Shown piece by piece: positions 118 through 63,562 of a DNA stretch of 64,000 nt. The DNA lies in assembly GCF_006345805.1 (NCBI RefSeq), contig NC_043003.1:106144001-106208000 (forward strand), given 5' to 3'. Each line of letters starts with the position of its first letter. The first letter of the stretch is position 1. The notes beneath the pieces were generated by a model. It had not been told where the DNA came from and did no database searches. It saw only the letters and a list, made by a program, of their open reading frames with translations. Both the position numbers and the translations under genes were made by a program. Origin of the DNA: Octopus sinensis (taxonomy: Eukaryota).

Positions 118-570
118 TTTTTTTTATTTCATCTAGTTTCAGCTCACGAGCTGTGGCCATGCTGGGGCACCGCCATTTGGTGTTGCAACATAATTTTACT
201 TCACGAATGCTTTTTAGCAATTGACATTTCGTGCATGATAGAGTTTGATGCAGCTGCCCTCATCTGCACCTCCTGCCGCGAAGTTGGTTCATCTGGGACA
301 CCTGACAGGAAGAGGGTCAGCTTTATTTTGAAGACATCTGCATCCACCTCATGCAGGTCTCTCGGGTTCTTCGGGAGGATATTGAAGAGCTGTGGACCTC
401 TGAAGCCCAGGCTATCGCAGTATCTTGTCCTACATCTTGATGGCAAATTTGGAGTCCTTGGCACTACGCAGTGACGCCCAGTTCTAGTATTTGTGTTCTC
501 GATGCCAAAGTTTGGGACAAGTCCTTCCAGGATCTTCCAGATGTATATTATGGCATATCTTTCTCGTCTA
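118..570 (-). mobile_element. Non-LTR retrotransposon (CR1/L2-group) 3' end remnant
   Basis: C-terminal peptide IIYIWKILEGLVPN...GPQLFNILPKN...FKIKL..FLSGVPDEP...RAAASNS, stop, short 3' UTR, A-rich tail. Confidence 0.8.
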
Positions 571-964
571 TTTTACTCTTAGGCAGAAGATCTTTGGTGC
601 GACCTCGGCAGAGTAGAAGACTTGAAGAGTAAACTTTAATGAAACCAGCAGACGGTAATCTGAACCACTGCCGTATTTTTCCTGGGAAAAGTCACGTGTT
701 TTAAAGCTTTATGTGAAATAATGATATAGAGGGCGAGACTCGTCCCATAGGAGAGCACGTGAGTCACAAATGACGTCTGACCATCATCAATAAAATATGA
801 ATCTGGAAATTGAGGTAAAGCAGCATCATAATTAGCACCAAGAACTTGTGTACAACGTATCTGAAGGGAAAACCGGATACTTTCAAAACCGAGACCCTAC
901 ATTTCGAAGCATTGTTTGCATGTATATGCACATTCAGATCTATTTCTGACTCAGGATCCAGATA

Positions 965-1569: not shown

Positions 1570-2063
1570 CATACACAATACCAAATATATACGTTTTATT
1601 TATTATTTTGCAATTTACTTAATCATCGGTATATTATTGTTATTTTAATTTTAATATTTCTATTATATGTAATTTTCTAGATGGTGTAATTTAATTGTTC
1701 ATTCTGAATTGATAAAAGTGTTTTTTTTTTTTCTAATTTATATATATATTTGAATGTGTATATGCAATTATATGTGTATATATCAACACATACGAGTTTA
1801 CATATGTGCATATATATGTGTGTGCGTTCGTGTGTATTGATGCTTCTTATGAGTGGCAAAAGTAGTATTAGTTCAAAATAGCAATCTGTGCATCATAATT
1901 ATAGCAAATGCAATGCTTAAAACCTGATAAATTGCTGTATTCGTCACAATATCGCATCTCTGATAGACATATAGAGTTTAAAAAAAACAAAGAGGAAGAA
2001 GTGCACATGTAGCAATGCCACCACCGCTGCTCTTATTTTTTACATTAATCTTAATCTTATTTC

Positions 2064-2108
2064 GGCCAGAGTTCTTTCGTCACACTTCTGTGACCTCATC
2101 AGTGGTCC
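2064..2108 (-). ncRNA. Minimal type I hammerhead ribozyme motif (mirror copy)
   Basis: Reverse strand ggacca-CTGATGA-G-GTCACA gaag TGTGAC-GAAA-gaac-TC-tggcc. Confidence 0.7.
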
Positions 2109-2174
2109 TTTGCTTCTTATTTGTGTGTCTCTCCTTACTAACGGTCAGCCATTTTGTACAAAGAAGAAAGAAAA

Positions 2175-2686: not shown

Positions 2687-2768
2687 TTCTCGACATATGT
2701 TTCGAAGACTGCATTTTCCTAATTTCGAAGGAATAAGGGGTGCATTATGCCGCCTTCTCATCAGGAAA
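2687..2768 (-). ncRNA. Type I hammerhead ribozyme motif with long stem II
   Basis: tttc-CTGATGA-GAAGGC...GTCTTC-GAAA-C ATAT G-TC-gaga; palindromic loop III; decayed paralog at 49431-49494. Confidence 0.8.
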
Positions 2769-9743: not shown

Positions 9744-10606
9744 CTAGATGATGTACCCGGTAATTCCCGGGAAAACGGGGTTTATCCCTTGGTTCCGTTC
9801 TCATAATTGTTTCGCTAATCCAGTAACAACAATACGAAGTATGTAGCCCTTAAAACGGTTTTTGTGCATTTACAGAGAATACCGAACTGTCTTACACAGG
9901 ATCTTGTTTCTAGGAATTTCCAATAAGTTATGAAAACCCAAATAATGAAGTCACTTATGTAATAACATGAAATTAGTTACCTGATAGTAAGAATTCAGAT
10001 AAAGTAGCCTCCAAAAGGGCTTTAATGCATTCTCAGAGTATATAGAACTTAGGAGGAAATACTAATAAGGTATGCATACTAAAATCATGAAGCATGTTAC
10101 ATAATAACAGGCTAATCAGATATGAGATGATAACAATTCAAAGTAAATAGCTCTGAAAAGGGGTTTTGTGCATTCCTGGAGAATATTACCCTCAGCGGTG
10201 CTAGTGTTGGTATATTCGTAAATAAATCACTAACCGAAATAAGTGGATCTATTGTTTAGGAAAATACTATTTACTTGTTTAAGGGTTGTACTGGATAAAT
10301 TGAGAAAATAACTCTAACAGTTCAAATACTAAGAAATAAGTATACTCAATTTCATTTATACCAAATGATTTAGGAATATGAATGGGTTAGTTCACTTGGC
10401 TTTTAAAATAAAATATATTTATATAAAAGGATCCTTTCCAGGGGGCTCTATTATCGATTTTGTCGACAATCTGAGAAGGCCATGAGGTTTTCAGACATGA
10501 GTTCTAGTCACGTGTCAAGTTTCATCAAAATCAATAAAACGATGTAGGAGGAGTTAGCTAACAACTCCACAAACACACCCACAGACAGAATTTCCCACAA
10601 ATGTAG

Positions 10607-10610
<4 letters not shown>
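9744..10610 (-). mobile_element. Non-autonomous Helitron-like element, family 2, with about three diverged internal repeats
   Basis: Minus-strand end CCCGGGAATTACCGGG...CTAG|t; recurring TAGC...GG.TTT.TGCATT units at about 9845, 10005, 10150. Confidence 0.55.
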
Positions 10611-10650
<40 letters not shown>

Positions 10651-10782
10651 AACAGAGGTCATAAAGGTACAGAGGGTACTGACTAGCACCACTTGTGCTA
10701 AAATGACGGTTAAATTAACTCCAAAGCCACTAAAGCACTGTAGTTAATGACTGACAGGGGGAGATAAGTCCCTAGCGTATGT

Positions 10783-10838
10783 AACCGTATCGCGATTTCG
10801 CATTTTGGTGTAGACCACCTTATTTCTCATCAGTGGCT
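10783..10838 (-). ncRNA. Hammerhead ribozyme motif (tandem copy)
   Basis: gcca-CTGATGA-G...GGTG gtcta CACC...C-GAAA-T CGCG A-TA-cggt. Confidence 0.6.
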
Positions 10839-10897
10839 CTTAACGCCAGTGATTAAACTCAACCTCCTTTGTCAATCTTATAAGAAAAATCGTTGAA

Positions 10898-10953
10898 AAC
10901 GTACTAAGTTTCAAAACAGCGAAGTGTAGACCACCTTAATTCTCATCAGCGAC
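10898..10953 (-). ncRNA. Hammerhead ribozyme motif (tandem copy)
   Basis: tcg-CTGATGA-GAA...GTG gtcta CAC...TTT-GAAA-C TTA G-TA-cg. Confidence 0.6.
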
Positions 10954-11355
10954 TATTAACGCCTATGTTTGAACTCAACTTCCTTTGTTAATATAACAAA
11001 AACCGTTAGGGACCTACTTTCCTCTCTCAGTCATTAAGTATAGCGCTTTAGTGACTTTGGGGTTCATTTGACTGCTATTTTAGCATAAGCGGTGCTAGTC
11101 AATACATTCTGTCACTTTTGTAATCTCTGTTAATTTTTGCCTTCATGTTCTAATTGCTAATAAGCCACCCTTTAATTTATATGTGTGTGTTGATGCAAAC
11201 AGGAAAAATAGAACTCAAAACGTGAGTATATGTATATTCATTCATATCAATATTTAGCAGACGAAGAAGAGCGACTCAAGGTCGCAGACTTTCGTGCCTT
11301 GGAACTTACCAAACTTGTCACAAGTCAAATGCCTGTGATTTTATATAGCTGTCGA

Positions 11356-11386
<31 letters not shown>

Positions 11387-11972
11387 ATATATTTCCCTGT
11401 AGAATGATCTAGAATGAATTATAATATCACGCAAATAATTCAAAAGGTTTGCATGTCATGTCGTTCAATAAGCAAATACATAGATTAATATGAAAATAAG
11501 GAGGGGGAAAAAGTAAAAAGAAATCTTGTGCGTGTAATCACACACGCATACACACATATTCACACACATACACACACCAAAACAAACACCCCCCCCACAA
11601 AATTCGCACATGCATATAGTGTTCATAAATTAGGCGCATAAACGCGGATACACGTATGTATGCGCACGCAGAGTAATCGTGTCCGTACAGACTCGTGTAT
11701 GTGCTTGAAAGCGCATGCGTACACACGTATACATACGTAGACAATCCTAAACGCATTAATTACGCACACATACACCGTTTAACTTTTACTTGTTTTACTG
11801 TAATTGGATTTGGAACATGCTGGGGCACCGCCGTGAAGGGTTTTGTCAAACAAGTCAACCTCGGTGCTCCTTTTCTTTAAGTCTGGTACTTATTCTATCG
11901 TCTTTTGTTGTCGGACCGCTAAGTTACGGGGACATCTAGAAACCAACGCCAGTCGTTAAACGGTGGCTGGGG

Positions 11973-15061: not shown

Positions 15062-15503
15062 CTCTTTTCTCTTTTACTTGTTTCAGTCATTCGACTGCGG
15101 CCATGCTGGAGCACCGCCTTTAGTCGAGCATATCGACCCCGGGACTTATTCTTTGTAAGCCCAATACTTATTCTATCGGTCTCTTTTGCCGAACCGCTAA
15201 GTGACGGGACGTAAACACACCAGCATCGGTTGTCAGGCAATGCTATAGGGGGACAAAACCAGACACACAACCCCCCCCCCCCACACCACCACACACACAC
15301 GCACACACACACACACACACTATATATATATACATATATACGACAGGCTTCTTTCAGTTTCCGTCTACCAAATCCACTCACAAGGCTTTGGTCGGCCCGG
15401 GGCTATAGCAGAAGACACATGTCCAAGATGCCACAGAGTGGGGCTGAACCCGGAACCATGTGGTTGGTTAGCAAGCTACTTACCACACAGCCACTCCTGC
15501 GCC
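15059..15503 (-). mobile_element. Major tRNA-derived SINE
   Basis: Full-length match to 6202-6626. Confidence 0.9.
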
Positions 15504-16908
15504 TATAATATACATATACATATGTGTGTGTGTGTGTGTGTATGTAAGTCGTTCCGTCACAGGATTACTCATGTTTGCCAGATTAATGGACTGGAACAAC
15601 GTAAAATTAAGTGTTTTGCTCAAGAATACAAAGCATTGCCCAGTATCGGACTCGAAATCACAATCTTACGATCACGACTCCAACACCCCAACCACTAAGC
15701 CATTTACCTCCATGGTACACTGACATCATTCATAGACCAGTGGTATGCTTCACACACATTGTCTATAACGAGATTTTTCTCTCTAGTGAAAGTCTTCTAA
15801 GTTTGAATGAGTGTACACGAACGTGCTAAATATAATTGTACGCGCCTATGTCACTTGACAAGTGTCTTTCACGCATTGCTTATTCACTGAATAAATAATC
15901 TGTTGTTTGTGTCATAAGATTCTAGAAACTTCGAGGGACATGAAACTATTCGTTTATAGAACTCGAAGTTGACCATGCTACAAACGTTAGCATGCTCATA
16001 TTGGTTTTAAAAAACTCTTGAATAGAAAAAATCGAAGGCTACCCGTGGAATACTAAGTTACATCTGTGACCCTGACAGACGTACAACCCCTGGACACATT
16101 CGTGTCCCATGCGAGGCTTTCGATCTTTCCTATTCAAAATGTTTTAAATCCAATATTTACGCGCTATTGTTTATAGCTTCATCTACTTCGAGTCCCTCAG
16201 TTACAACAAGTACTTTATTCTCTGAAATATACTAACGTTCTGCACCTACTCATCTACAATGTTGGACAACTCCCTTAATGATTCTCTGTTCACAACTTTA
16301 GCAAAGAAAGAGCCAAGGTTTCGCTGATGAGGTCTAATGACACCAAAACGTGTTCCCAGTTGTTTCCCTTGCTAGAATAATTGGTATAATATCAGTCATT
16401 GACTAAGATTGTCTTTTTCTCTCACCACTTAGTTATTTCTAGTAAGTTGTTTAATGCTTACTACGTTAAATATAATAACACTAATTTGACTGCTGTTTTG
16501 TGGCTATCTAAGCAATGTGTTCACGGATGACTGATGGGTTGGACGGGTGTTGATCAAGGAGCAAAAACTCCCGAAATATGGCACATGCACTCACTACCCA
16601 TTTTTCATCTTCCATATATATATATATATATATATCTGCCTTTACCTTCGAAACACGCATTGAGTTGAAACAGGGGCAGCTGATGAAGGGGAATATTCCT
16701 TGTATTGTTTGTCTTGTACTCTGTTTTTTCGTTGTTAAAAAAAGTCTGTTTCCTTGTTTGATTTTATGTTTTCGTTTCTCGTTGTGTTCTACGTTTATTT
16801 GTGGTGTCCTGTACTCGTATATGCATGTATATATACATCTAGATGTAGGTATGTACATATATGTATGTATGTAGTATGTATGTTTATGTTTTATTATTAA
16901 ATTGTTAT

Positions 16909-26092: not shown

Positions 26093-26277
26093 AATGAACC
26101 ATTTTCCATTTGTTATATATATATAATCATCAGTTTTAAAATCCTTTATCCTTAATTCCAAAATCCAAAAACATATTTTTGATTGCTAGCATGACACACC
26201 AGAAATGGAAAATTCCATTTCCAGTTTTCCTTACATTTACCTGTAATCAAAATCCATGTTTTGTTTTTATATAAAAA

Positions 26278-31070: not shown

Positions 31071-31176
31071 TATTTAAATAATTTGTATAACAGGGAAAAC
31101 TCAGCAACTGACAATTGCTACTAATATACACCAAAACAATTGAAACAGCTGTAGTGAATGAACCATTTTCCATTTG

Positions 31177-31209
<33 letters not shown>

Positions 31210-31437
31210 CATCAGTTTTAAAATCCTTTATCCTTAATTCCAAAATCCCAAAAAATGTTTTGATTGCTCTTTCACATGAGACCTGGATTTCATTTCCATG
31301 AACGAGTGTCACATGACTAGCACTATTACTTACAAGATACTTTAAAAATAAAACCTTTTATCTTTTACTTGTATCATTCATTAGACTGCTTCGTGTGTTT
31401 GTGTGCAATTTCTGCCATCTAGAAAAAAGGATATTCT

Positions 31438-34817: not shown

Positions 34818-63562
<28,745 letters not shown>

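What the first reader, a model, noticed from the sequence alone, without database searches (positions are those of the whole stretch)
10651..11131. Foldback element that encloses two tandem hammerheads 116 nt apart
Seen: about 125-bp diverged inverted arms surround a direct repeat in which both minus-strand units carry CTGATGAG...GAAA..TA with different loop III (TCGCGA, CTTAG). Established: tandem hammerheads can cleave as dimers and release unit-length RNA, as in retrozymes and some satellite transcripts. Inference: an unusual architecture with ribozymes in the loop rather than the arms; double cleavage would release an RNA of about 115 nt that could circularise. Stems are decayed in this copy.
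Basis: partly seen in the sequence, partly recalled or inferred. Interest (0 to 1): 0.75.

Follow-up and report, generated by a model that had tools for sequence, protein, structure and literature searches.

The report
Decayed head-to-head hammerhead repeat copies
This is an old, mutated insertion of a short non-coding repeat whose family carries a hammerhead (self-cutting RNA) motif; its mirror-image arms are two back-to-back copies of that repeat, likely laid down by a Penelope-type retrotransposon enzyme, and this copy's two ribozyme-like motifs are predicted to be dead, so it is an ordinary member of a known kind of element.

Summary
There are inverted arms of 115-127 nt (79% alike), a 116-nt direct repeat, and two minus-strand CTGATGAG...GAAA...TA motifs.

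It is not a foldback transposon. It is a composite of one interspersed repeat family with a unit of about 335 nt. The family has at least 500-640 first-look candidates in this 2.72-Gb genome, and its copies are at most 82-86% alike.

The family carries a type I hammerhead with a 2-bp helix III capped by a palindromic loop (the dimer type). Three base pairs covary between subfamilies. An intact natural copy is a sub-threshold Rfam HH9 match.

The arms are the 3' parts of two head-to-head copies. Across 73 loci I counted 40 head-to-head junctions, 0 tail-to-tail and 34 same-strand. The 3' ends are fixed and the 5' ends scattered. One arm of a pair carries an extra tail of about 55 nt (22 of 24 pairs), and the ends abut microsatellites. 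This is the published anatomy of Penelope-like-element insertions.

The second "hammerhead" is a private 116-nt duplication that joins a CTGATGAG box to an unrelated GAAA. Both motifs have lost their stems, and their loops III cannot pair with each other. A 115-nt product is therefore not supported.

Verdict: a fossil member of the animal retrozyme / PLE-hammerhead kind.

The parts
10607..10650 (.). (TA)n microsatellite abutting the 3' end of the main copy; likely part of the insertion target
   Evidence: Sequence and repeat family D1. In the family, 67 of 91 outer 3' ends have a microsatellite within 110 nt, against 139 of 518 control segments.
10651..10922 (-). Main copy of the ~335-nt repeat (profile positions 44 to about 322). 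It ends at the 'short' 3' end. Its 3' region, 10651-10777, is the left arm.
   Evidence: nhmmer hit L001 1488-1772 (-), profile 44-330, which is window 10638-10922. End type 'short'.
10771..10847 (-). Decayed family hammerhead (downstream unit). CTGATGAG is at 10826-10833, GAAA at 10796-10799, loop III TCGCGA at 10790-10795. The predicted former cleavage site lies between 10788 and 10787.
   Evidence: Aligned with 78 other copies. Compared with intact copies it has lost pairs in helix I and at the base of helix II. The energy of the imposed hammerhead fold is -8.8 kcal/mol, against an MFE of -18.4.
10924..11007 (-). Partial duplicate (profile 74-160) lying upstream of the main copy. It carries the second CTGATGAG at 10942-10949. 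The duplication has a 116-nt period and is private to this copy.
   Evidence: nhmmer hit L001 1774-1857 (-), profile 74-160. This is the only same-strand double core at about 116 nt among 73 loci.
10902..10949 (-). Chimeric pseudo-hammerhead. The CTGATGAG box and distal helix II come from the duplicated piece. They are joined to a GAAA-CTTAG-TA that belongs to the unit's upstream region.
   Evidence: The fold has z = +0.99 against shuffles. The imposed hammerhead fold costs +18.7 kcal/mol.
11004..11180 (+). Inverted 5'-truncated copy. Profile 191-329 is window 11004-11143 (the right arm). An extra terminal tail of about 40-55 nt follows and ends at the 'long' 3' end.
   Evidence: nhmmer hit L001 1854-1993 (+). 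The tail sequence continues as in other copies.
11181..11192 (.). TG-rich microsatellite remnant abutting the long 3' end
   Evidence: Sequence.

Best explanation
Window 10651-11180 is two head-to-head copies of a ~335-nt non-coding interspersed repeat whose family carries a type I hammerhead motif. They were likely inserted together into a TA microsatellite by a Penelope-like-element (PLE) reverse transcriptase/endonuclease, and both hammerhead-like motifs of this copy are predicted to be inactive.

Shown by the calls or the sequence:
- The family exists and is old.
- Its hammerhead helices are conserved and covary between subfamilies.
- Copies have fixed 3' ends and scattered 5' ends.
- Neighbouring copies are either same-strand partial tandems or head-to-head, never tail-to-tail.
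- In a head-to-head pair one outer end is short and the other carries an extra tail.
- The outer ends abut microsatellites.
- The window's second motif comes from a private 116-nt duplication.

Inferred:
- In the active ancestors, transcripts holding two units would pair their palindromic loops III into one long helix III and cut themselves as a double hammerhead. This would release RNA of about 335 nt (not 115 nt), which a host ligase could circularise, as reported for animal retrozymes.
- A PLE enzyme supplied in trans would nick a TA-rich microsatellite.
- Both DNA ends would prime cDNA on the repeat RNA at two different TA-like sites.
- The two incomplete cDNAs would be joined in the middle. 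This would give inverted arms with a variable inner junction.

After insertion the copy decayed. Its arms are now 79% alike. A slip or unequal exchange duplicated 116 nt.
For: Family and age:
- 133 matches from 505 first-look candidates, and 78 matches from 641 candidates. Only 40 candidates were scored each time, so these are lower bounds.
- The best identity between different copies is 82-86%.
- Only 13 exact matches to a 35-place core pattern occur in 2.72 Gb; the reversed control gives 0.

Hammerhead, in 79 distinct copies:
- UGAUGAG and the AAA of GAAA are at least 90% conserved.
- 89.3% of 1632 cells are paired in the stated three-helix structure, against 19-52% when the partners are slid.
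- 0 of 500 shuffles reach the observed pairing, the both-sides-changed cells (99 vs 46.5) or the covariation score.
- Three pairs switch between subfamilies: CG 39 / UA 24; GC 32 / AU 28; AU 46 / GC 25.
- Among the 13 exact-pattern hits, the two degenerate helix II pairs are G-C 6, A-T 5, G.T 2, A.C 0, and A-T 9, G-C 4.
- The intact natural copy L038:1473-1549(-) matches Rfam Hammerhead_HH9 end to end. The score is 21.3 bits, E 0.0025, with core, helices and site in register.
- The two-strand MFE of that copy is a double hammerhead with an 8-bp intermolecular helix III: -47.9 kcal/mol against 2 x -20.9.

Insertion anatomy, in 144 distinct copies from 73 loci:
- 40 head-to-head, 0 tail-to-tail and 34 same-strand junctions. 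In the loci fetched with queries that were not foldbacks (L031-L073) the counts are 22, 0 and 15.
- 117 of 144 3' ends lie at profile position 311 or beyond. 48 of 144 5' ends lie at 1-10, and the rest are spread over 11-280.
- Of 24 head-to-head composites with both outer ends readable, 22 are short+long, 2 short+short and 0 long+long. One-orientation chains are 16 short and 12 long.
- 67 of 91 outer ends have a microsatellite nearby, against 139 of 518 controls.

Published anatomy and context:
- All these features are listed for PLE insertions in PMC8557442 (passages read): 5' truncation, partial tandems, an inverted 5'-truncated copy at the 5' end, a tail at one end only, and a (TA)n target bias.
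- Short palindromic helix III and action as dimers are described in PMC4209133 and PMC7229834 (passages).
- The genome holds many GIY-YIG candidates: 5029 at first look, with 149 of 150 scored over the cut-off. Some sit in open frames of 780-883 aa.
Against: - No Rfam hammerhead reaches the gathering score anywhere. There is nothing in the window, and the intact copy scores 21.3 bits against a cut-off of 52.
- Covariation rests on a few subfamily-level events. The count of pairs with a both-sides change (10) is not above shuffles (220 of 500 reach it).
- Only 1 of 4 natural copies tested gave the double hammerhead as dimer MFE. No monomer MFE formed helix III (0 of 5).
- No autonomous partner was found. 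The family profile hits none of the 20 best GIY-YIG loci at E<=10. The 68 ORFs of 110 aa or more in 72 family loci show no recurrent RT or GIY-YIG.
- 5' ends do not pile up at the predicted cleavage site, profile 180/181. Only 4 of 144 fall in 171-190. There is thus no footprint of cleavage in vivo.
- Head-to-head partners are barely more alike than unrelated copies (0.794 vs 0.779). The partner is the single best match in 1 of 25 pairs. Co-insertion therefore rests on the orientation and tail rules, not on similarity.
- Loci L001-L030 were fetched with the foldback itself as query, which may favour inverted layouts.
Confidence: 0.78

Rival explanations
1. The units are 5'-truncated tails or solo pseudo-LTRs of an autonomous Penelope-like element, not a stand-alone non-autonomous (retrozyme-like) repeat. 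The hammerhead would then belong to that PLE's pLTR.
For: PLE hammerheads sit in pLTRs, and PLE insertions are heavily 5'-truncated (PMC4209133 and PMC8557442, passages). The genome is rich in GIY-YIG frames. Only 1.5 kb of flank was examined per locus.
Against: - 48 of 144 copies begin at the same profile start.
- Of the 52 such copies listed, nearly all (by my reading of the list) are preceded by the end of another unit or by unique DNA, not by a shared longer sequence.
- None of the 68 flanking ORFs shows a recurrent RT or GIY-YIG.
- The profile finds nothing in 20 PLE loci.
Confidence: 0.12
2. One reading: a foldback or MITE-like DNA element whose terminal inverted repeats enclose two tandem hammerheads, which cut out an RNA of about 115 nt.
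For: - Inverted arms of 115-127 nt with fixed outer ends.
- A possible TAA on both sides, by my reading.
- Head-to-head layouts recur in the family.
Against: - The arm plus unit occurs without a partner in 30 one-orientation chains and in 34 same-strand partial tandems.
- The length of the inverted partner varies. Its 5' end falls anywhere from profile 2 to 279.
- The two outer ends differ by a tail of about 55 nt in 22 of 24 composites.
- The 116-nt double motif is unique to this copy.
- Neither unit folds as a hammerhead, and the loops III are not complementary.
Confidence: 0.04
3. There is no ribozyme at all. CTGATGAG...GAAA would be a chance motif in an ordinary SINE-like or satellite repeat, and the pairing reflects shared ancestry only.
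For: - The bare motif is expected 1.26 times per window by chance.
- No Rfam gathering-level hit.
- Related sequences can exceed shuffles without any structure (the tool's own caveat).
- There is no cleavage footprint at 5' ends.
Against: - Three separate pairs in two helices are compensated between subfamilies, with few mismatched intermediates.
- The only Rfam match with E below 0.01 on an intact copy is a hammerhead, aligned over the full model.
- Core, helix lengths and the palindromic loop III fit the published metazoan type I layout (PMC4209133).
- The insertion anatomy is that of the element class known to carry hammerheads.
Confidence: 0.05

Closest known systems
Animal non-LTR retrozymes (Cervera and de la Pena 2020, PMC7229834, passages read; Li, Clavereau and Pollet 2026, bioRxiv 10.64898/2026.07.22.740005, abstract, section 14 and passages read)
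   Same: - A non-coding, AT-rich unit within the published 170-400 nt range (about 335 nt).
- A type I hammerhead.
- Monomers, dimers and partial tandems all occur.
- PLEs are present in the same genome.
   Different: - Mostly 1.0-1.2-unit copies and head-to-head pairs rather than long tandem arrays. Full same-strand double cores were seen in only 3 loci.
- The family is extinct (copies at most 86% alike).
- No unit-length or circular RNA was shown here.
- No sequence link to a PLE pLTR was found.
Penelope-like element insertions and their pLTR hammerheads (Craig et al. 2021, PMC8557442; Cervera and de la Pena 2014, PMC4209133; passages read)
   Same: - 5' truncation and partial tandems.
- An inverted 5'-truncated copy at the 5' end.
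- An extension present at one end only.
- TA-microsatellite targets.
- A hammerhead with a minimal palindromic helix III.
- Paired motifs 100-700 bp apart on opposite strands are reported.
   Different: - There is no RT/GIY-YIG ORF in or beside the unit.
- Helix II is long and interrupted (5 bp + AA/AA + 4 bp).
- The tail is about 55 nt, not the published 30-40 bp.
- The hammerhead lies mid-unit.
Dimeric type I hammerheads of amphibian satellite/retrozyme repeats and Rfam Hammerhead_HH9 (RF02275)
   Same: - Type I topology.
- Helix III is too short to fold alone, and its palindromic loop allows a double hammerhead (PMC7229834 passages).
- HH9 is the best Rfam match for an intact copy.
   Different: The score is far below the family cut-off (21.3 vs 52 bits). 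The loop-loop tertiary contacts were not examined. Activity is untested.
Foldback / MITE DNA transposons
   Same: Long inverted arms with fixed outer ends next to TA-rich DNA.
   Different: - The arms are unequal, since one carries a tail.
- The inner junction varies.
- The same sequence occurs alone and in direct partial tandems.
- No consistent target-site duplication is seen.

Membership tests
Hammerhead ribozyme, type I | Conserved core boxes CUGAUGA ... GAAA ... UH in this order | tested here: met
   Present in both window units. In 79 family copies UGAUGAG and AAA are at least 90% conserved. C3 and G12 fall below 90%; G12 sits in a CpG.
Hammerhead ribozyme, type I | Three helices around the core, with helix I open and helices II and III closed, supported by covariation | tested here: met
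   This holds for the family. 89.3% of cells are paired, against 19-52% for slid controls, and three pairs are compensated between subfamilies.
Hammerhead ribozyme, type I | The same three helices are formed by the window's own two units | tested here: not met
   The downstream unit has lost pairs at the base of helix II and at 1.1/2.1. The upstream unit is a chimera. Imposed hammerhead folds give -8.8 and +18.7 kcal/mol, against MFEs of -18.4 and -11.1. No Rfam match at E<=10.
Hammerhead ribozyme, type I | Rfam covariance-model score at or above the gathering cut-off | tested here: not met
   The best is Hammerhead_HH9 at 21.3 bits against a cut-off of 52, E 0.0025, on the natural copy L038. 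Nothing in the window.
Hammerhead ribozyme, type I | Site-specific self-cleavage | not testable with these tools
   This needs in vitro transcription of natural copies as monomer and as tandem dimer.
Animal non-LTR retrozyme | Non-coding unit of 170-400 nt with a type I hammerhead, arranged in tandem | tested here: inconclusive
   The unit is about 335 nt and non-coding. There are 34 same-strand junctions, but most are partial. Complete double cores 309-326 nt apart occur in 3 loci only.
Animal non-LTR retrozyme | Unit-length linear and circular RNA in tissues | tested here: inconclusive
   Only contigs of four runs guessed to be RNA could be laid. A few low-depth pieces resulted, mostly embedded in unlike sequence. 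No verdict.
Penelope-like-element type insertion | Fixed 3' end, 5' truncation and partial tandems | tested here: met
   117 of 144 3' ends lie at profile 311 or beyond. 5' ends are spread over 1-280, with 48 at 1-10. 34 same-strand junctions.
Penelope-like-element type insertion | An inverted 5'-truncated copy adjacent to the 5' end | tested here: met
   40 head-to-head against 0 tail-to-tail junctions. The window copy is one of them.
Penelope-like-element type insertion | Terminal extension (tail) at one end only | tested here: met
   22 of 24 readable composites are short+long. In the window the left end is short and the right end long.
Penelope-like-element type insertion | Microsatellite (TA)n target bias | tested here: met
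   67 of 91 outer ends against 139 of 518 control segments. TA/AT units account for 41 of the 67.
Penelope-like element (autonomous) | ORF with an RT and a GIY-YIG endonuclease | tested here: not met
   None in or beside the unit. Such ORFs exist elsewhere in the genome but share no sequence with the unit.
Foldback / MITE DNA transposon | Equal terminal inverted repeats that define both ends, a target-site duplication, and no solo half-elements | tested here: not met
   The ends are unequal. There are 30 one-orientation chains. The inner junctions vary.

The most novel reading that the evidence does not exclude
The family's insertion rules are strict. Junctions are never tail-to-tail (40 to 0). 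One short end and one tailed end occur per head-to-head pair (22 of 24), although single copies use either end about equally (16 to 12). This is the footprint of one event in which the two DNA ends of a cut TA microsatellite prime at two different fixed sites on hammerhead-repeat RNA. If so, fossil families like this one give a countable read-out of how PLE enzymes copy retrozyme RNA. That link has been proposed but not demonstrated.
Probability: 0.35. Interest if true: 0.5.

Novelty: new member of a known kind. Interest (0 to 1): 0.28.

Why it matters
For this locus it matters little. It is a dead copy, and no 115-nt ribozyme product is expected.

For the family it adds an old hammerhead-bearing repeat with clean, countable insertion rules to the animal retrozyme / PLE picture. 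The rules are head-to-head only, one tail per pair, and microsatellite targets.

It also shows that Rfam's gathering thresholds miss such motifs. They missed the second, younger pair in the same window as well. Annotation pipelines will therefore under-report them.

Tried and rejected
1. An Rfam E-value scan of 20 family loci. The 150 listed rows were microsatellite/miRNA-like noise and 74 rows were not shown, so it was uninformative. A short stretch of an intact copy was then scanned instead.

2. The idea that the unit's upstream region is an ancient diverged copy of the hammerhead, that is, an ancestral two-ribozyme unit with a 116-nt period. Local alignments of the two regions in 8 natural full-length copies gave z from -1.7 to 2.3 against shuffles. 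Rejected; only a short patch (...TACAC) is shared.

3. A test for co-insertion by partner similarity. Mean identity was 0.794 for partners and 0.779 for other copies, which is inconclusive for so old a family.

4. A search for an autonomous partner. PF01541 in the own genome, the unit profile on 20 such loci and Pfam on 68 flanking ORFs gave no link.

5. A cleavage footprint at 5' ends. None was seen.

6. RNA evidence.
   - No RNA holder is listed for the locus.
   - Contigs of four runs guessed to be RNA, laid at 80% likeness on a natural unit, gave 4-18 low-depth pieces per run. Most ran on into unlike sequence. One tandem-type joint appeared, which also exists in DNA. No verdict.
   - Three earlier tries of that call did not complete.

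7. Earlier notes of this scan by place and by sequence: nothing.

8. A tRNA-like (SINE) head. No tRNA or other family match in the Rfam E-value scan of the region. ARAGORN was not run.

Full report
**1. The observation**

The + strand holds inverted arms at 10663-10777 and 11004-11118. They are 115 nt long, 79% complementary and 226 nt apart. It also holds a direct repeat, 10808-10886 and 10924-11002, with spacing 116 and 82% identity.

On the minus strand both units read CTGATGAG ... GAAA ... TA, with TCGCGA and CTTAG between GAAA and TA.

The bare motif is weak evidence. The descriptor CTGATGA N15-40 GAAA N4-8 TH is expected 1.26 times per window by chance. Rfam finds no hammerhead in 10300-11500 even at E<=10, and nothing at gathering level in the whole window.

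**2. It is a copy of a repeat family**

The 481-nt stretch has 133 matches in the window's own genome, which is 2.72 Gb in 13,516 contigs. There were 505 first-look candidates, of which 40 were scored. A natural full unit gives 78 matches from 641 candidates. The best identity between different copies is 82-86%.

Most matches cover one arm plus one inner unit, not the whole foldback. I built a profile of 333 positions from 32 copies. It defines a unit with a period of about 335 nt. Read in the hammerhead sense, the unit runs upstream region, spacer, hammerhead (profile 121-197), then the 'arm' (3' region).

**3. The family motif is a hammerhead**

I aligned 79 distinct copies of the 77-nt hammerhead region. 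UGAUGAG and the AAA of GAAA are at least 90% conserved.

I stated a type I structure:
- helix I of 5 bp, an internal loop with one isolated A-U pair, then 4 bp;
- helix II of 5 bp, an AA/AA internal loop, 4 bp and a 5-nt loop;
- helix III of 2 bp closing CGCG.

Under this structure 89.3% of 1632 cells form standard pairs, against 19.0-51.7% when the partners are slid by 1-3 columns. No shuffle out of 500 reaches the observed pairing, the 99 both-sides-changed cells (46.5 expected) or the covariation score.

Three pairs switch cleanly between subfamilies:
- helix I: CG 39 / UA 24;
- base of helix II: GC 32 / AU 28;
- distal helix II: AU 46 / GC 25.

A 35-place core pattern with five two-fold positions has 13 exact hits in the genome and 0 for the reversed control. 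Its two degenerate pairs are never A.C. The counts are G-C 6, A-T 5, G.T 2, and A-T 9, G-C 4.

Caveats:
- These are a few subfamily-level events.
- The count of pairs with any both-sides change (10) is not above shuffles (220 of 500).

The intact natural copy L038:1473-1549(-) matches Rfam Hammerhead_HH9 over the whole model, with core, helices and site in register. The score is only 21.3 bits against a cut-off of 52, with E 0.0025.

Monomer folds form helices I and II in L038 and L064 but never helix III (0 of 5 sequences). Two strands of L038 fold into a double hammerhead with an 8-bp intermolecular helix III, at -47.9 kcal/mol against 2 x -20.9. The three other natural copies tested did not.

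This layout, a short helix III with a palindromic loop acting as a dimer, is what PMC4209133 and PMC7229834 describe for metazoan type I hammerheads (passages).

**4. The arms are two head-to-head copies, not terminal inverted repeats**

In the window the profile finds three pieces:
- 10638-10922 (-), profile 44-330;
- 10924-11007 (-), profile 74-160;
- 11004-11143 (+), profile 191-329.

Beyond 11143 the + strand continues as other copies do, up to about 11180.

Across 73 loci there are 144 distinct copies. Neighbours within 100 nt give 40 head-to-head, 0 tail-to-tail and 34 same-strand junctions. In the loci fetched with queries that were not foldbacks the counts are 22, 0 and 15. Under equal odds 40:0 has a probability of about 1e-12 (my arithmetic).

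3' ends are fixed: 117 of 144 lie at profile 311 or beyond. 5' ends are not: 48 lie at 1-10 and the rest are spread to 280.

There are two alternative 3' ends. The 'short' one lies near ...CTATTAAT. The 'long' one lies about 55 nt further on, near ...AATTTGTTAT. One-orientation chains use them 16 to 12. Of 24 head-to-head composites with both ends readable, 22 are short+long, 2 short+short and 0 long+long. That has a probability of about 1e-5 if the ends were drawn independently (my arithmetic). The window fits the rule, with its left end short and its right end long.

Outer ends have a microsatellite within 110 nt in 67 of 91 cases, against 139 of 518 control segments. TA/AT units account for 41 of the 67. 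The window has (TA)n on the left and a TG repeat on the right.

PMC8557442 lists exactly this anatomy for Penelope-like elements: strong 5' truncation, partial tandems, an inverted 5'-truncated copy at the 5' end, an extension present at one end only, and (TA)n targets (passages).

**5. The second 'hammerhead'**

The piece at 10924-11007 repeats profile 74-160, which is the spacer plus the 5' half of the hammerhead. It lies directly upstream of profile 44. This gives the 116-nt period.

Its CTGATGAG is followed by the unit's ordinary upstream region, whose GAAA-CTTAG-TA has no core partner in other copies. Among 73 loci this is the only double core at about 116 nt. The three others are 309-326 nt apart, which is a full unit.

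The chimera folds no better than shuffles (z +0.99). An imposed hammerhead fold costs +18.7 kcal/mol.

The downstream unit keeps its core and its palindrome but has lost pairs at 1.1/2.1 and at the base of helix II. TCGCGA and CTTAG cannot form a joint helix III. No 115-nt product is expected. The sites would in fact be 114 nt apart.

**6. What it most likely did**

Shown: everything in sections 2-5.

Inferred:
- Active ancestors were transcribed across at least two units.
- They cut as double hammerheads into RNA of about 335 nt, which a host ligase could circularise (PMC7229834).
- They were copied by a PLE enzyme supplied in trans.
- Both ends of a cut TA microsatellite primed at two different sites.

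The genome has many GIY-YIG frames, some of them open over 780-883 aa. I found no sequence link between them and this unit. I also found no 5'-end pile-up at the cleavage site (4 of 144 within profile 171-190) and no partner-similarity signal.

Li et al. 2026 argue, from co-occurrence and pLTR homology in Xenopus, that animal retrozymes derive from PLEs (abstract and section 14 read).

**7. Age**

The arms are 79% alike. No copy pair exceeds about 86%.

Contigs of public DNA runs under three organism labels carry 10710-11211 with 0-1 differences. A fourth label carries 10860-11084 with 6 differences and bridges the head-to-head junction. The composite is therefore old and shared.

**8. Verdict**

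This is a fossil, rearranged member of the animal retrozyme / PLE-hammerhead kind.

Earlier notes of this scan describe other hammerhead repeats with head-to-head, two-end-site insertions in the same genome. One of them led me to test the end rule here.

Noticed in passing
window 2033-2115 and 2168-2250: A second, much younger inverted pair with 83-nt arms, 98% complementary and 52 nt apart. Each arm carries CTGATGAG + GTCACA-GAAG-TGTGAC + GAAA, that is, a 6-bp helix II with a bulged G (the minimal PLE-type hammerhead). The arms lie head-to-head, and a long (TA)n at 2385-2490 is nearby. Rfam gives only RAGATH-1-hammerhead at 16.7 bits, E 2.3, among hairpin noise.
   Followed up: partly
window 2705-2764 (-) and 49435-49490 (-): Two related hammerhead-like motifs of a further family (CTGATGAG AAGG ... 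CCTTC GAAA, and a decayed relative). Overall 15 descriptor matches occur in the window against 1.26 expected. Those at 26093-26133 and 31157-31215 look like chance matches inside TA repeats.
   Followed up: no
own genome, e.g. L080, L081: GIY-YIG (PF01541) gave 5029 first-look candidates, and 149 of 150 scored were over the cut-off. Many have identical scores and open frames of 780-883 aa, which suggests abundant Penelope-like elements, some possibly intact. None of the 20 loci fetched shares sequence with the repeat studied here.
   Followed up: partly
window 15249-15698, 35210-35572, 38533-39078, 51858-52229, 57955-58287, 58331-58711, 62935-63300: Stop-free frames that repeat a peptide-like string (...[18 protein letters not shown]...) on both strands. 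This is probably another abundant interspersed repeat. It was not examined.
   Followed up: no
window 201-572 (-): An open frame of 123 aa (NRRERYAIIYIWKILEGL...). By recollection only, it resembles the C-terminal part of LINE-type reverse transcriptase ORFs. It was not searched.
   Followed up: no
window 10351-11450 in public runs: The flanking stretch 10462-10609 has very high summed contig depth (up to about 3e5) and many variants, so it is a separate, very abundant repeat next to the (TA)n. The composite itself is shared by contigs under four organism labels.
   Followed up: partly
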